NCBI RefSeq assembly: GCF_056712565.1
Contig: NZ_CM160072.1
DNA length: 64,000 bases
Direction: 5' to 3' (one strand)
Shown here: positions 60,113-64,000 of the stretch, one piece after another
Numbering within the stretch: the stretch's first letter is position 1
How the letters are laid out: every line of letters starts with the position of its first letter
Position numbers and translations under genes: made by a program
The notes under the pieces: generated by a model
What the model was told of the DNA's origin: nothing
Databases searched by the model: none
Seen by the model: the letters and a program-made list of their open reading frames with translations, nothing else

Positions 60113-61328
60113 CGATAATTCTCTTAATAAGCGCCCCACGTTTAAAAGAGCATTACGCAACATCAGTATGACCAGCATATTTATCACTATGATGCTGATC
60201 TGGCTGCTGCTTTCCGTGACGTCAGTGCTGACCCTGAAACAGTACGCGCAAAAAAACCTGGCACTGACAGCAGCAACAATGACTTACAGTCTGGAAGCAG
60301 CTGTCGTTTTTGCCGATGGCCCTGCAGCAACTGAAACACTGGCAGCGCTGGGCCAGCAAGGCCAATTTTCAACTGCAGAAGTGCGTGATAAGCAGCAAAA
60401 TATTCTGGCATCCTGGCATTACACCCATAAGGAACCAGGCGATACTTTCAGCAATTTCATAAGCCACTGGCTCTTCCCTGCCCCCATCATTCAGCCGATT
60501 CGCCACAATGGTGAAACTATTGGCGAAGTACGCTTAACTGCTCGCGACAGTTCAATCAGCCATTTTATCTGGTTTTCGCTCGCTGTCCTGACCGGTTGTA
60601 TTCTGCTGGCATCAGGCATCGCAATTACCCTCACCCGCCATTTGCACAATGGCCTGGTGGAAGCGCTGAAAAATATCACCGATGTCGTACATGATGTGCG
60701 TTCTAACCGCAATTTTTCCCGACGAGTTTCGGAAGAACGTATCGCTGAGTTTCACCGCTTCGCTCTCGACTTCAACAGTCTGCTGGATGAAATGGAAGAG
60801 TGGCAGCTTCGTTTACAGGCCAAAAATGCGCAGCTTCTACGTACCGCGCTACATGACCCATTAACCGGGCTGGCTAACCGCGCAGCGTTTCGTAGCGGCA
60901 TCAACACGTTGATGAACAATTCCGATGCCCGAAAAACGTCGGCGTTACTATTTCTTGATGGCGATAATTTCAAATATATCAATGATACCTGGGGTCATGC
61001 GACGGGCGATAGAGTCTTGATTGAAATAGCAAAACGGTTAGCTGAATTTGGCGGGCTGCGACATAAAGCATACCGCCTGGGCGGCGATGAATTCGCTATG
61101 GTGCTCTATGATGTACAGTCGGAATCTGAAGTGCAGCAGATATGCTCAGCACTGACACAAATTTTTAATCTCCCGTTTGATCTTCATAATGGCCATCAAA
61201 CTACCATGACATTAAGCATTGGTTACGCGATGACTATTGAGCACGCCTCTGCGGAAAATTTACAAGAGCTTGCCGATCACAATATGTATCAGGCCAAACA
61301 CCAGCGTGCCGAAAAGCTGGTGAGATAA
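60102..61328 (+). CDS. dgcN: Diguanylate cyclase YfiN/DgcN (TM-HAMP-GGDEF)
   Basis: 408 aa; GGDEF-domain active-site motif present as RLGGDEF. Confidence 0.9.
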
Positions 61329-61343
61329 CAAGGATATATCGAT

Positions 61344-61826
61344 ATGATAAAGCACCTGCTAGCACCCCTGATTTTCACCTCGCTAATACTTACTGGCTGC
61401 CAGTCCCCTCAGGGAAAGTTTACTCCTGAGCAAGTCGCCGCTATGCAATCTTATGGATTTACTGAATCCGCCGGCGACTGGTCGCTGGGCTTATCAGATG
61501 CCATTCTGTTTGCAAAAAATGACTACAAATTGCTCCCGGAAAGCCAGCAACAGATCCAAACCATGGCAGCCAAATTGGCCTCGACAGGGCTAACACATGC
61601 CCGTATGGATGGACACACCGACAACTATGGTGAAGACAGTTACAACGAAGTCTTATCATTGAAACGGGCGAATGTCGTGGCCGATGCATGGGCTATGGGT
61701 GGACAAATTCCGCGCAGCAATCTCACCACACAGGGTTTAGGAAAAAAATATCCCATAGCCAGTAACAAGACCGCCCAGGGCCGCGCCGAGAACCGCCGCG
61801 TCGCAGTGGTGATTACAACCCCTTAA
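61344..61826 (+). CDS. yfiB: OmpA-family outer-membrane lipoprotein YfiB
   Basis: 160 aa; lipobox LTGCQS; OmpA-like C-terminus. Confidence 0.9.
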   Translation: MIKHLLAPLIFTSLILTGCQSPQGKFTPEQVAAMQSYGFTESAGDWSLGLSDAILFAKNDYKLLPESQQQIQTMAAKLASTGLTHARMDGHTDNYGEDSYNEVLSLKRANVVADAWAMGGQIPRSNLTTQGLGKKYPIASNKTAQGRAENRRVAVVITTP

Positions 61827-61998
61827 AACACGAGCAAACAGACAAAAAAAGGGCCAGCCAATTGGCCAGCCCTTCTTAACAGGATGTCGCTTAAGCGAAA
61901 TCTTAGTTAAGACGCTCCTATTAACACCCCGCAACAAACAAACGCTTACCATATAAAACAATTAGTTAAAGTAATTTTTAATGCAATGAATTGCAGTG

Positions 61999-63048
61999 TT
62001 ATGCAACCTCTGCCGCCATATTGTCGCCAACATACAGCGATAACGGATTAAGGGTTACAGCTTGTTCAAGGTGGTCAGGAGCAAAGTGTGCATACTTCAT
62101 TGTTTCTCGAATATTGGCATGCCCGAGAATTTTCTGCAGTACCAGTATATTCCCGCCGTTCATCATAAAATGCGCACCAAAAGTATGACGCAAAACGTGC
62201 GTCTTCTGCCCTTCCGTCAATTCAATATTCGTTAGTTTGAGCATCTTCTTAAACTCCTGATAGCAGGGTTTAAACATTCTGCCTTGACGTACGGACAACT
62301 CGTCGTACAGCCATTTAGGAATAGGAACTGTGCGATTCTTCTTACCTTTGGTTTTGGTGAACGTCAGTTTATATGGAGAAAGTTGAGGGCGGGTCAATCT
62401 CTCCGCTTCCCCCCATCGAGCGCCGGTTGCAAGGCACACCTTAACAATCATGGTGAGGTCTTCTTTGCCGTATTGCTCGCAGGCTCGAAACAGCTCCGGG
62501 AGCTGAGACAAAGTTAGCCAGGACATTTCTTTCTCAGCCTCTTTGAATACTCGGATCCCATCAAGTGGATTGGGTAGGCTCCACTCCCCTAACCGGCGGA
62601 GCTCATTAAACACTGCTTCTAGGTATTGTTGTTCGCGATTGACGGTTATAGGTTTGGCGATCCATTTCGAGGGGTCTTTATGATAACCGTTGTCTATTTC
62701 ACCACGTAATCGACGGTCACGATAATGAGCCCAGTCTTTCGCGGTAAGGCGAGATGCAATCGGGTCACCAAGCCCATTACATACGATTTGAAGCTTTGCT
62801 AACCTCGACTTACTGGCGACTAACGCTTGACCGTGCAAATTGTGCCAAAGCTGAATAATCTCGCTTAAGCGTCGGCGGTCTTCTTTCTTGCCAAGCCACG
62901 GCTTATCTTCACTCTCGCTTTTGGTAAATGCTTCGAATGCCTCGGCCTCACCTTTGGTATTGAATTGCCGACGTATACGCCGCCCTTCTCGACCATTTGG
63001 ATAGAGCTCGCATAACCATTTGCCATTTTTTTGCTTACTTACAGTCAT
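61999..63048 (-). CDS. int: Tyrosine integrase, phage 186/P2 type
   Basis: 349 aa; MTVSKQKNGKWLCELYPNGREGRRIRRQF…, …CLATGARWGEAERL…, …HVLRHTFGAHFMMNGGNILVLQKILGH…YAHFAP… closely parallels 186/P2 Int as recalled. Confidence 0.85.
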   Translation of the reverse strand: MTVSKQKNGKWLCELYPNGREGRRIRRQFNTKGEAEAFEAFTKSESEDKPWLGKKEDRRRLSEIIQLWHNLHGQALVASKSRLAKLQIVCNGLGDPIASRLTAKDWAHYRDRRLRGEIDNGYHKDPSKWIAKPITVNREQQYLEAVFNELRRLGEWSLPNPLDGIRVFKEAEKEMSWLTLSQLPELFRACEQYGKEDLTMIVKVCLATGARWGEAERLTRPQLSPYKLTFTKTKGKKNRTVPIPKWLYDELSVRQGRMFKPCYQEFKKMLKLTNIELTEGQKTHVLRHTFGAHFMMNGGNILVLQKILGHANIRETMKYAHFAPDHLEQAVTLNPLSLYVGDNMAAEVA

Positions 63049-63070
63049 AATGTCACCGAGGCAACTCTAA

Positions 63071-63409
63071 TTATTCGCAAAGTGCTGTTGCGGCATCCAT
63101 TACAGGATCCAAAGGAATTTTTACACCTGCATACTCTGGACTGTCTTTCCAAACAGCATCAATATTGCTCCCCTCAAGCTTTCCAGACTTTACTCCATCA
63201 ATAGCAAAACCATTTAATGGGTATCGGTCATCAGTTGCTTTGTCGTATACAAAGGCATACTTACCGTTAACGCAAGACACCGTAGCTTTTTCAAAAGTTA
63301 ACGGCCAATCCTCACCAAACTTAGCGCCATCTAAATCCTGTGTTTTTTCAGCGGCTAAGGAGCCAAAAGAAAAGGTAAGAAGCATAGCTAAAAAGAGTTT
63401 ACGTTTCAT
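63071..63409 (-). CDS. Small exported protein of unknown function (prophage cargo between int and repressor)
   Basis: Start taken at MKRKLFLAMLLTFSFGSLAA (signal peptide, no lipobox); mature ~90 aa with two Cys; sits in the int-cI lysogenic transcription unit. Start codon is inferred; the track ORF extends further upstream. Confidence 0.55.
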   Translation of the reverse strand: MKRKLFLAMLLTFSFGSLAAEKTQDLDGAKFGEDWPLTFEKATVSCVNGKYAFVYDKATDDRYPLNGFAIDGVKSGKLEGSNIDAVWKDSPEYAGVKIPLDPVMDAATALCE

Positions 63410-63417
63410 AATTTCCC

Positions 63418-63984
63418 TTATACGTGTTTTTCCAATGTGAAAACTACAACCCCGGCAGGCGTAATGTCGGTAATGTTGCATTCAAACTCAGCAGACTTAT
63501 TTGACAACCTGACTTTTCCACCAGGTAAACGAATTACATCAAAAACATCAAGAGCGCCGTCGATATCAATTAACCAGCGACCATTACTTATATTCGAAGC
63601 AGAACAGTCGACAAGCCAAGAGGCAGCTACACCGTCAACAAAAATCAATTCCCCTGAGTTAGAAGGAATCATTGAGGGGTCAGGATGCCACGTTCCTGCA
63701 TCCTTAAGCTCACCAGATTCAAGACGAGATTTTTTAATAGAAAAACCAGATGTGACATCTTCCCTGTTAGCTCGCATTTGCCCCTTGCCTGTTGCTAACC
63801 ATTCCAGTGACGTATCGGTATCAAGAGCGCATGTAACAACAACATCACCAGGGAAAAAATCTCGCCTTACCCATGTGCTAATTGTGCCAGAGGAAATGCC
63901 GAGCAAATCACCGAGCTCCTTTTGCATGGTAAAGCCATACGCATCAAGAATCCTACGCAAAACGGTTTTACCACCATTCGTCAT
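63418..63984 (-). CDS. Phage CI-type repressor (N-terminal HTH, C-terminal oligomerisation domain), 186 CI-like
   Basis: 188 aa; N-terminus LRRILDAYGFTMQKELGDLLGISSGTISTWV is an HTH; size and position match 186 cI. Confidence 0.7.
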   Translation of the reverse strand: MTNGGKTVLRRILDAYGFTMQKELGDLLGISSGTISTWVRRDFFPGDVVVTCALDTDTSLEWLATGKGQMRANREDVTSGFSIKKSRLESGELKDAGTWHPDPSMIPSNSGELIFVDGVAASWLVDCSASNISNGRWLIDIDGALDVFDVIRLPGGKVRLSNKSAEFECNITDITPAGVVVFTLEKHV

Positions 63985-64000
63985 AATCTCGTCATAAAGC

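What the first reader, a model, noticed from the sequence alone, without database searches (positions are those of the whole stretch)
63071..63409. Uncharacterised exported protein encoded between the integrase and CI repressor of a 186-like prophage
A ~113-aa ORF with a cleavable-looking signal peptide (MKRKLFLAMLLTFSFGSLAA|EKTQ), two cysteines and no recognisable motif lies between int and the CI-like repressor, co-oriented with both. In 186/P2-family phages this unit is transcribed in the lysogen, so a gene here would be expressed from the prophage state, which is the typical niche for lysogenic-conversion, superinfection-exclusion or envelope-modifying factors. I cannot assign it to a known family from sequence alone. 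Within this window it is the best candidate for something not previously described.
Basis: partly seen in the sequence, partly recalled or inferred. Interest (0 to 1): 0.65.

Follow-up and report, generated by a model that had tools for sequence, protein, structure and literature searches.

The report
Prophage copy of periplasmic YebY protein
The small exported protein encoded between the repressor and integrase genes of this prophage is real. It is not new: it is gene 28 of phage PSP3 and belongs to the YebY/DUF2511 family, which has a solved structure, and only its job in the phage is still untested.

Summary
The ORF is real. It lies on the minus strand at 63409..63071 and encodes 112 aa. 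It sits 8 bp after the stop of a 186-type cI gene and 22 bp before int, next to host yfiB.

- It matches Pfam PF10709 (DUF2511/YebY) at E=2.7e-17.
- Both disulfide cysteines align with those of YebY.
- It is 100% identical to a protein of phage vB_EcoM-613R3 and 97% identical to PSP3 gp28.
- RefSeq annotates it in about 1% of complete E. coli genomes.
- A 2022 YebY paper already notes homologues between a recombinase and a phage CI repressor.

What the survey adds:
- The gene is a fixed, purifying-selected part (dN/dS about 0.1–0.3) of the cI–gene–int operon in every PSP3-type prophage examined, down to 32% identity.
- Alleles are shuffled independently of the flanking genes.
- Unrelated Bifidobacterium prophages carry a DUF2511 lipoprotein in the equivalent slot.

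My preferred function is periplasmic superinfection exclusion or envelope protection, by analogy with K139 Glo. This is inferred, not shown. Modulation of copper import, as for host YebY, is the main rival.

The parts
63071..63409 (-). YebY/DUF2511-family gene (112 codons plus TAA), equivalent to PSP3 orf28/gp28.
63350..63409 (-). Sec-type signal peptide (residues 1-20, MKRKLFLAMLLTFSFGSLAA). Cleavage is predicted after SLA or SLAA. There is no lipobox.
   Evidence: n-, h- and c-region features. Low pLDDT for residues 1-20 and at least 96 afterwards. Signal peptides across the family and periplasmic localisation of E. coli YebY are reported in PMC8689200. Cleavage itself was not tested.
63074..63349 (-). 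Mature domain of about 92 aa (about 10 kDa, pI 4.4) with the YebY/MlbQ alpha/beta fold. C46 and C111 align with the YebY disulfide Cys48-Cys113.
63414..63419 (-). Shine-Dalgarno-like AAGGGA. It overlaps the cI stop codon and ends 4 nt before the ATG.
   Evidence: Read directly from the sequence. Midge annotators mark an RBS at the same place.
63418..64000 (-). 3' part of the 186/PSP3-type CI immunity repressor gene. The reading frame continues beyond the end of the window. The full gene is 286 codons in the identical phage record.
   Evidence: PHROG 4 and 34054 transcriptional repressor. L002 annotation. Pfam Phage_CI_repr and Phage_CI_C on homologues.
61999..63048 (-). PSP3-type tyrosine integrase (349 aa), the last gene of the inferred cI-yebY-like-int operon.
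   Evidence: PHROG 1 integrase at E=2.4e-74. 100% identical to ON470592 int and 91% to PSP3 int.
61846..61877 (.). Strong bidirectional GC-rich hairpin between yfiB and int. It is the first strong (14-bp-stem) terminator-like site downstream of int on the minus strand; two weak stem-loops also match inside int (62173-62203). It lies in or near the prophage/host junction.
   Evidence: Terminator scan of the window and of L002. The exact attL position was not mapped.
61344..61826 (+). Host yfiB (OmpA-family lipoprotein), preceded by dgcN/yfiN and yfiR. This marks the chromosomal insertion site of the prophage.
   Evidence: translations. The same flank is present in ON470592 and in loci L003-L007.

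Best explanation
The gene encodes a phage-type member of the YebY/DUF2511 family. It is the same gene as PSP3 orf28.

Proposed mechanism, step by step:
1. It is co-transcribed with cI and int from the prophage's lysogenic promoter(s), so it is made in lysogens. This is inferred from the operon layout.
2. The Sec system exports it and its signal peptide is removed. This is inferred from sequence and from experiments on E. coli YebY.
3. It folds in the periplasm into a soluble, acidic domain of about 10 kDa, with a four-stranded sheet plus helices, stapled by a C46-C111 disulfide. This is predicted and matches the YebY crystal structure.
4. It has no catalytic motif, so it most likely works by binding something in the cell envelope.

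My preferred role is protection of the lysogen at the envelope, in practice superinfection exclusion: it would block an incoming phage after adsorption, during passage through the periplasm. This is what the unrelated periplasmic protein Glo is annotated as doing from the same cI-int slot of the P2-family phage K139.

Likelihoods for each step:
- Family identity: about 0.95.
- Export and disulfide: about 0.85.
- Expression in the lysogen: about 0.8.
- Exclusion or protective role: about 0.35.
For: Identity:
- Pfam PF10709 at E=2.7e-17.
- phmmer hit to 7N0J YebY at E=3.7e-7 with both Cys aligned.

Real, selected gene:
- dN/dS 0.08-0.27.

Operon:
- Gaps of 8 bp and 22 bp, with no promoter-like or terminator-like site between the three genes. 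The first strong (14-bp-stem) terminator-like hairpin comes after int; two weak stem-loops also match inside int.
- Annotated lysogenic operons of 186 and K139 have the same layout.

Conserved residency in the lysogeny module:
- All 10 phage records with a PSP3-type int carry the gene.
- 59 of 78 IMG/VR loci show cII<-, cI->, Y->, int.
- Homologues at 57%, 37%, 34% and 32% identity sit in the same slot.

Pointers to a protective or exclusion role:
- K139 Glo ('periplasmic protein; involved in phage exclusion') occupies the same slot.
- Rousset 2022 calls the cI-int interval of K139-like phages an antiviral hotspot.
- An 'abortive infection family protein' lies just after int in ev040, and a different cargo gene lies between cI and int in Klebsiella phage 4LV2017.
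- The Y alleles are mosaic. They are 77% identical between Midge and RCIP0057, whose cI is 99% and int 98% identical.
- Within Enterobacterales the phage subfamily spans 100% to 32% identity, whereas host YebY is 66% identical across genera.
- Family member MlbQ is proposed to be a protective binder of an external toxin (PMC8689200).
- Bifidobacterium prophages carry a DUF2511 lipoprotein between the repressor/ImmA module and int.
Against: - No experiment of any kind addresses this protein. Transcription, export and phenotype are all inferred.
- It matches no model in PADLOC.
- It is not homologous to Glo (hhalign probability 0.3%), so that argument rests on position and compartment only.
- Defence hotspots usually hold variable cargo. 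Here the same gene is fixed in the lineage, which fits a housekeeping-like lysogen function as well as it fits exclusion.
- The only experimentally studied Gram-negative family member acts in copper import, not phage defence (PMC11923076).
- Low dN/dS shows no sign of ongoing positive selection.
Confidence: 0.35

Rival explanations
1. Copper-homeostasis modulator. The phage protein acts like host YebY. It interacts with the host CopD-type importer YebZ and/or YobA in the periplasm and damps copper import. This would change copper-dependent signalling in the lysogen, for example mar regulon activation and antibiotic tolerance.
For: - It belongs to the same family and fold as E. coli YebY, with 33% identity and family-wide conserved residues retained: W35, Y63-P64-x-N66, S75-G76-K77, D89-x-P91, C46 and C111.
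- YebY lowers YebZ-dependent copper accumulation and is proposed as a 'safety valve' (PMC11923076).
- The enterobacterial hosts carry AZY operons, for example L013/L014.
Against: - The phage type and the host type are distinct subfamilies. They are only 32% identical within one genome, while host orthologues are 66% identical across genera. The host-type signature motifs WAFNREEV and IQIDDP are replaced by WPLTFEKA and VWKDxP.
- Hadley et al. class the recombinase-CI context as 'unrelated to copper homeostasis'.
- YebY binds copper only weakly and only when reduced, and a single yebY deletion had no reporter phenotype.
- The wide allelic diversity is unexpected for a protein aimed at a conserved host transporter.
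Confidence: 0.25
2. Immunity against an external envelope-targeting toxin, in the manner of MlbQ. The periplasmic protein would sequester a bacteriocin, lantibiotic-like peptide or other lipid II/envelope-directed agent. This would give the lysogen a competitive advantage unrelated to phages.
For: - MlbQ is proposed to bind NAI-107 directly (PMC8689200).
- Bifidobacterium prophages carry lipoprotein versions. Surface exposure on a Gram-positive cell would suit peptide binding.
Against: - There is no lipid anchor here.
- There is no linked ABC transporter or bacteriocin cluster.
- Lantibiotics do not normally cross the enterobacterial outer membrane (my own background knowledge).
- No candidate ligand is known.
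Confidence: 0.15
3. A role in the phage's own lysogeny cycle. For example, it could be a periplasmic factor that affects establishment, maintenance or induction of lysogeny. It would be made together with Int and CI from the establishment promoter, rather than benefiting the host.
For: - It has a strictly conserved position inside the cI-int operon in every PSP3-type prophage examined, rather than being variable cargo.
- Its GC content is like that of cI (0.41 versus 0.44) and lower than that of int.
Against: - 186, Fels-2 and other 186-type phages lysogenise without any gene in this slot.
- A soluble periplasmic protein has no obvious link to the cytoplasmic switch.
- In L084/L085 the homologue sits at the other prophage end, next to ogr.
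Confidence: 0.1
4. A neutral passenger or decaying remnant with no current function.
For: - The gene is rare in E. coli, present in about 1% of complete genomes.
- One 90%-cluster representative carries a C111W change that would abolish the disulfide.
Against: - Purifying selection, with dN/dS 0.08-0.27.
- An intact 112-113-aa reading frame is kept down to 32% identity in the same slot.
- The signal peptide, both Cys and the family motifs are retained.
Confidence: 0.05

Closest known systems
Salmonella phage PSP3 orf28/gp28 (NP_958085), with identical or near-identical proteins in phages vB_EcoM-613R3, SEN1, Midge, SW9, SI22 and RCIP0057
   Same: It is the same gene, at 97.3% identity to PSP3 gp28 and 100% to the 613R3 protein. 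It occupies the same cI-gene-int position, and in 613R3 the same yfiB insertion site.
   Different: Nothing of substance. None of these copies has been functionally studied, and the annotations read 'DUF2511 domain-containing', 'putative periplasmic protein' or 'hypothetical'.
E. coli YebY (PDB 7N0J), the third gene of the yobA-yebZ-yebY (AZY) copper-uptake operon
   Different: - The genomic context is a prophage lysogeny operon, not copC-copD.
- It belongs to a distinct subfamily with different signature motifs, only 32% identical to the host copy in the same genome.
- The mature protein is more acidic (net charge -7 versus -1).
- A link to copper has not been tested.
MlbQ (PDB 2MVO/6QFP), the lantibiotic NAI-107 self-resistance lipoprotein of Microbispora
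   Different: MlbQ is lipid-anchored through a long disordered linker and is encoded in a lantibiotic/ABC-transporter cluster. The prophage protein is soluble, has no lipobox and has no such neighbours.
Glo of Vibrio cholerae phage K139 (NP_536629). P1 Sim is a further example of a soluble periplasmic exclusion protein, recalled from my own knowledge.
   Same: Glo is a small signal-peptide protein with two cysteines. It is encoded between cI and int on the lysogenic PL transcript of a P2-family phage, and is annotated as periplasmic and involved in phage exclusion. This is the closest positional and compartmental analogue.
   Different: There is no sequence or profile similarity (hhalign probability 0.3%). 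It is an analogue, not a homologue.

Membership tests
YebY / DUF2511 (Pfam PF10709) | Significant match to the family profile HMM over the whole domain. | tested here: met
   PF10709 at i-E=2.7e-17, model positions 5-87 of 87. The profile built from 90 family members hits 7N0J at 1.3e-21 and 2MVO at 6.5e-13.
YebY / DUF2511 (Pfam PF10709) | Antiparallel four-stranded beta-sheet packed with helices, superposable on YebY and MlbQ. | tested here: met
YebY / DUF2511 (Pfam PF10709) | Two strictly conserved cysteines forming the Cys48-Cys113 disulfide. | tested here: met
   C46 and C111 align with YebY Cys48 and Cys113. C46 is invariant and C111 is at least 90% conserved across 90 sequences. Disulfide formation itself cannot be tested with these tools.
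YebY / DUF2511 (Pfam PF10709) | N-terminal signal peptide and extracytoplasmic location. | tested here: inconclusive
   The sequence has a canonical n/h/c signal peptide with an SLA(A) cleavage motif. The family-wide prediction and the periplasmic localisation of E. coli YebY are reported in PMC8689200. No dedicated predictor or experiment was available here.
AZY-operon YebY orthologues (copper-linked subfamily) | Encoded immediately downstream of copC/yobA and copD/yebZ. | tested here: not met
   The neighbours are cI and int. A true AZY operon with its own YebY lies elsewhere in the genomes of L013/L014.
AZY-operon YebY orthologues (copper-linked subfamily) | Orthologue-level similarity and the host-type motifs WAFNREEV and IQIDDP. 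| tested here: not met
   Only 32-33% identity to host YebY, whereas host orthologues are 66% identical across genera. The motifs are replaced by WPLTFEKA and VWKDxP.
AZY-operon YebY orthologues (copper-linked subfamily) | Modulates YebZ-dependent copper import. | not testable with these tools
   This needs copper uptake or reporter assays.
MlbQ-type lantibiotic immunity lipoproteins | Lipobox cysteine anchor, and location in a lantibiotic/ABC-transporter cluster. | tested here: not met
   There is no lipobox (signal peptide ends ...FGSLAA|EK). The neighbours are phage genes.
Periplasmic superinfection-exclusion proteins of P2-family phages (K139 Glo type) | Encoded between cI and int on the lysogenic transcript, with a signal peptide. 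| tested here: met
   The layout is the same as the K139 PL-cI-orf2-glo-int operon. Transcription here is inferred, not measured.
Periplasmic superinfection-exclusion proteins of P2-family phages (K139 Glo type) | Homology to Glo. | tested here: not met
   hhalign probability 0.3%.
Periplasmic superinfection-exclusion proteins of P2-family phages (K139 Glo type) | Confers exclusion of superinfecting phage. | not testable with these tools
   This needs plaque, adsorption and DNA-entry assays.
Catalogued anti-phage defence systems (PADLOC-DB 2.0) | Match to any defence-protein model. | tested here: not met
   Zero families at E<=1.

The most novel reading that the evidence does not exclude
Phage-type YebY/MlbQ-fold proteins may be a widespread but unrecognised class of prophage-encoded envelope guards that provide superinfection exclusion or toxin immunity. 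They would be soluble periplasmic proteins in PSP3-like prophages of Enterobacterales and lipoproteins in Bifidobacterium prophages. In both cases they are placed next to the immunity repressor, so they would be made in lysogens. If true, this would also suggest that the poorly understood host YebY and MlbQ act by the same kind of binding at the membrane surface.
Probability: 0.3. Interest if true: 0.55.

Novelty: already known. Interest (0 to 1): 0.22.

Why it matters
As a discovery it matters little. The sequence, its family, a homologous crystal structure and even its placement between a recombinase and a CI repressor are already on record.

Its residual value is as a well-defined, cheap experimental target.
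- It is a 112-aa gene fixed in the lysogenic operon of a whole lineage of P2/186-type prophages.
- It shows allele shuffling, and it has a counterpart in Bifidobacterium prophages.
- It belongs to a family whose two studied members, YebY and MlbQ, still lack a clear molecular mechanism.

Showing what the phage copy binds could clarify the whole DUF2511 family. It would also show whether this prophage changes phage sensitivity, copper signalling or antibiotic tolerance of its E. coli or Salmonella host.

Tried and rejected
- **NCBIfam:** no model matches the protein.
- **PADLOC:** no defence model matches it, nor the neighbouring bPH/SHOCT cargo gene seen in some relatives.
- **BFVD viral structure library:** no hit at E<0.001. 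The fold is essentially unrepresented among catalogued viral structures, so this gave no functional lead.
- **Rfam, tRNA and promoter scans of 61.8-64 kb:** no RNA family, no tRNA attachment site and no internal sigma-70-like promoter for the gene.
- **Domain fusions of long DUF2511 proteins:** mostly disordered linkers, with single fusions to OmpA, SH3_3 and Sel1. A weak bPH_3/GRAM hit could not be linked by BLAST to the phage bPH/SHOCT neighbour, and that neighbour has no signal peptide or transmembrane segment. I dropped the idea that the two act together.
- **Recent capture of host yebY:** rejected. A prophage remnant does lie 3.5 kb from an AZY operon in L013/L014, but its copy is only 32% identical to the adjacent host YebY.
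- **Homology between K139 Glo and this protein:** rejected.
- **Proteomics papers mentioning a DUF2511 protein:** these could not be tied to the prophage copy.
- **Nesper et al. 1999 on Glo:** the paper is not held in the library. Glo's role is therefore cited from the GenBank annotation and from my own recollection of that paper.

Full report
**1. Observation**

The ORF is present as described, but on the minus strand. The ATG is at 63409 and the TAA at 63073-63071, giving 112 codons.

The product begins with a textbook Sec signal peptide. It has the basic stretch MKRK, a 12-residue hydrophobic core, the motif SLAA and no lipobox. It contains exactly two cysteines, C46 and C111.

Upstream, 8 bp away, a 186/PSP3-type CI repressor ORF ends, and that ORF runs off the end of the window. 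Downstream, 22 bp away, a 349-aa tyrosine integrase starts. An AAGGGA Shine-Dalgarno-like sequence overlaps the cI stop codon.

Beyond int lie a strong bidirectional hairpin (61846-61877) and the host genes yfiB, dgcN and yfiR. The window therefore holds only the left 2 kb of a prophage inserted next to yfiB.

The 136-aa ORF that the ORF listing reports from 63481 overlaps cI and is not conserved. The 112-aa form is the gene, as RefSeq also calls it.

**2. Identity**

- The protein matches Pfam PF10709 (DUF2511, named YebY in the current Pfam release) at E=2.7e-17 over the whole model. It also matches PHROG 2950 at E=1.8e-52.
- A sequence search of the PDB finds E. coli YebY (7N0J) at E=3.7e-7. 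BLASTP gives 33% identity over 83 residues, and both YebY disulfide cysteines align.
- An AlphaFold2 model built on a 90-sequence alignment has mean pLDDT 90.7. Confidence is low only in the signal peptide.

**3. Already on record**

- tblastn against phage genomes finds a 100% identical protein in Escherichia phage vB_EcoM-613R3. That record even includes the same yfiB/dgcN flank.
- It finds 97.3% identity to gp28/orf28 of Salmonella phage PSP3 (genus Eganvirus), and copies in SEN1, Midge, SW9, SI22 and Klebsiella phage RCIP0057.
- RefSeq labels these copies 'DUF2511 domain-containing protein'. The Midge annotators write 'putative periplasmic protein' with an HHpred probability of 99.97%.
- In 5,426 complete E. 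coli genomes, 43 carry this allele group and 17-24 carry a second allele group. All are chromosomal and all are annotated.
- Hadley et al. 2022 (PMC8689200) solved the YebY structure. [quoted passage not shown]

Both the object and its arrangement are therefore known. Its function in the phage is not.

**4. What the comparative survey adds**

(a) The gene is a fixed feature of one phage lineage, not a sporadic insert.
- All ten phage records whose integrase is at least 91% identical to this one carry it. None of about 300 records with integrases at or below 60% identity does.
- Of 78 IMG/VR loci recovered with a family alignment, 59 show the order cII (divergent), cI, YebY-like, int. Five loci (four of them among the 59) have an extra cytoplasmic bPH/SHOCT gene after the YebY-like gene.
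- Representatives at 57%, 37%, 34% and 32% identity still sit in the cI-int slot of 186-like prophages.

(b) Other 186-type phages have cI abutting int directly. These include 186 itself, Fels-2, Klebsiella phi4.1 and Yersinia MLG42. They carry cargo after int instead, for example 186 orf69 and an 'abortive infection family protein' in ev040. Klebsiella phage 4LV2017 has an unrelated 349-aa gene in the cI-int slot.

(c) The gene is under purifying selection. dN/dS is 0.08-0.27, compared with 0.02-0.04 for int and 0.05-0.2 for cI.

(d) Alleles are shuffled independently of their flanks.
- Midge and RCIP0057 share 99% identical CI and 98% identical Int, but their YebY-like proteins are only 77% identical, with saturated dS.
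- SW9 has 98.6% Int identity but 72% YebY-like identity to the window.

(e) The phage type and the host AZY type are separate subfamilies.
- In one genome (L013) the prophage copy is 32% identical to the host YebY 3.5 kb away. That host YebY is 66% identical to E. coli YebY.
- The phage type keeps the general family consensus (WPLT..., VWxDxP), which it shares in part with MlbQ. The host type has WAFNREEV and IQIDDP.

(f) A distant DUF2511 lipoprotein (26-32% identity, lipobox LASSAAC) lies between a repressor, an ImmA-like metalloprotease and a small membrane protein on one side and the integrase on the other, in high-GC temperate phages. An exact-pattern scan places this group in Bifidobacterium. 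Another P2-like phage has a copy between two HTH repressor-like genes. In two loci the copy sits by ogr at the other end of the prophage.

**5. How it most likely works**

*Shown or strongly supported:* it is a real, conserved gene, a YebY-fold protein, and it has a signal peptide and the disulfide cysteines.

*Inferred:* it is co-transcribed with cI and int.
- The gaps are only 8 bp and 22 bp.
- The scan found no promoter-like site for the gene and no terminator-like site between the three genes. The only strong terminator-like hairpin (14-bp stem) lies after int; two weak stem-loops also match inside int.
- The annotated lysogenic operons of 186 and K139 have this layout.
- The protein should therefore be present in the periplasm of lysogens as a soluble, acidic domain of about 10 kDa (pI 4.4) with no catalytic motif. 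That makes it a binder.

*Preferred role (probability about 0.35):* envelope-level protection of the lysogen, most simply superinfection exclusion after adsorption. The reasons are:
- The same slot of the P2-family phage K139 encodes Glo, annotated 'periplasmic protein; involved in phage exclusion'.
- Rousset et al. 2022 identify the cI-int interval of K139-like phages as an antiviral hotspot.
- A 2026 preprint counts the int-primase interval among P2 defence hotspots.
- The allele mosaicism and the deep divergence of the phage subfamily suit a protein facing variable partners.
- MlbQ is proposed to be a protective binder.
- An unrelated Gram-positive phage lineage places a family member in the same module.

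*Against:*
- Glo is not homologous.
- PADLOC has no match.
- The gene is fixed rather than variable.
- dN/dS is low.
- There are no experiments.

**6. Rivals**

- **Copper modulation through YebZ/YobA (about 0.25).** This is the only function shown for a Gram-negative family member (PMC11923076). The subfamily split, the weak and probably non-physiological copper binding of YebY, and the published judgement that this context is unrelated to copper all weigh against it.
- **Toxin or bacteriocin immunity in the MlbQ manner (about 0.15).** This fits the fold, but there is no lipid anchor and no linked cluster.
- **A role in the phage's own lysogeny cycle (about 0.1).** This fits the fixed position, but sister phages manage without the gene.
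- **A neutral passenger (about 0.05).** This is contradicted by selection and conservation.

**7. Verdict**

This is an already catalogued member of the YebY/DUF2511 family: PSP3 orf28. Its placement has been noted in the literature.

The remaining open question is what the phage copy binds. It is genuine but modest. I score interest at 0.22. The most novel reading that the evidence does not exclude is a cross-phylum class of prophage envelope guards, at about 0.3 probability.

Noticed in passing
L087:2201-5953, also L086-L102; L108 (Bifidobacterium sp. MAG): High-GC temperate phages of Bifidobacterium carry a DUF2511 lipoprotein (127 aa, lipobox LASSAAC, PHROG 2950). It sits between an HTH repressor, an ImmA-like metalloprotease and a small membrane protein on one side and the tyrosine integrase on the other. 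This is the same lysogeny-module position as in PSP3-like phages, despite unrelated phage backbones.
   Followed up: partly
L008:5168-5668; L013:5475-5975; L060-L063; L082: Some PSP3-like prophages have an extra 166-aa gene (bPH_3/GRAM plus SHOCT domains, no signal peptide or transmembrane segment) inserted between the YebY-like gene and int. It has no PADLOC match and its function is unknown.
   Followed up: partly
L013 and L014:1-5975: A decayed prophage (integrase fragment, cI, YebY-like, bPH/SHOCT) lies only about 3.5 kb from the host's own copC-copD-yebY operon. One genome therefore has a host-type and a phage-type YebY almost side by side, only 32% identical to each other.
   Followed up: yes
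Protein P0001 (representative of a 101-member cluster, 94% identical to the window protein): This E. coli variant has Trp instead of the C-terminal disulfide cysteine (…ATALWE). In E. coli YebY, mutating either cysteine abolished expression (PMC8689200). This may be an inactivated copy or a sequencing error.
   Followed up: no
L022 (Midge) versus L023 (RCIP0057); L024 (SW9) versus window: The YebY-like gene is mosaic relative to its flanks. In Midge versus RCIP0057, CI is 99% and Int 98% identical but the YebY-like protein is 77% identical. In SW9 versus the window, Int is 98.6% identical but the YebY-like protein is 72%. This suggests replacement of this one gene by recombination.
   Followed up: partly
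L020:755-1804 (Klebsiella phage 4LV2017); L019:3743-4561 (Escherichia phage ESSI2_ev040); L018:3523-5073: Other 186-type phages use the lysogenic operon for different cargo. 4LV2017 has an unrelated 349-aa protein between cI and int. ev040 has an 'abortive infection family protein' just after int. Klebsiella phi4.1 has a 516-aa hypothetical protein overlapping the end of int.
   Followed up: no
window 63418-64000 (minus strand) and L002:3132-3992: The PSP3-type CI repressor is annotated at 280-290 aa, with two Phage_CI_repr hits plus Phage_CI_C, against 192 aa in phage 186. In the window the reading frame continues upstream of the internal ATG at 63984 to the window end, so the repressor is truncated by the window.
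   Followed up: no
L084:2832-3194 and L085: In two P2-like prophages the YebY-like gene (120 aa) is not in the cI-int slot. It lies next to ogr at the opposite prophage end, directly abutting host rpoD-mug.
   Followed up: no
window 61846-61999: The prophage is inserted beside yfiB with no tRNA gene at the junction (ARAGORN found none in 61000-64000). The yfiB terminator hairpin probably doubles as the terminator of the lysogenic operon. The att core was not mapped.
   Followed up: partly
window 63071-63409: The gene is markedly AT-rich. Its GC is 0.41 and GC3 0.31, compared with int at 0.47/0.48 and the window average GC of 0.51. It resembles cI (0.44/0.37), so the immunity region and this gene share a compositional history distinct from int.
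   Followed up: yes
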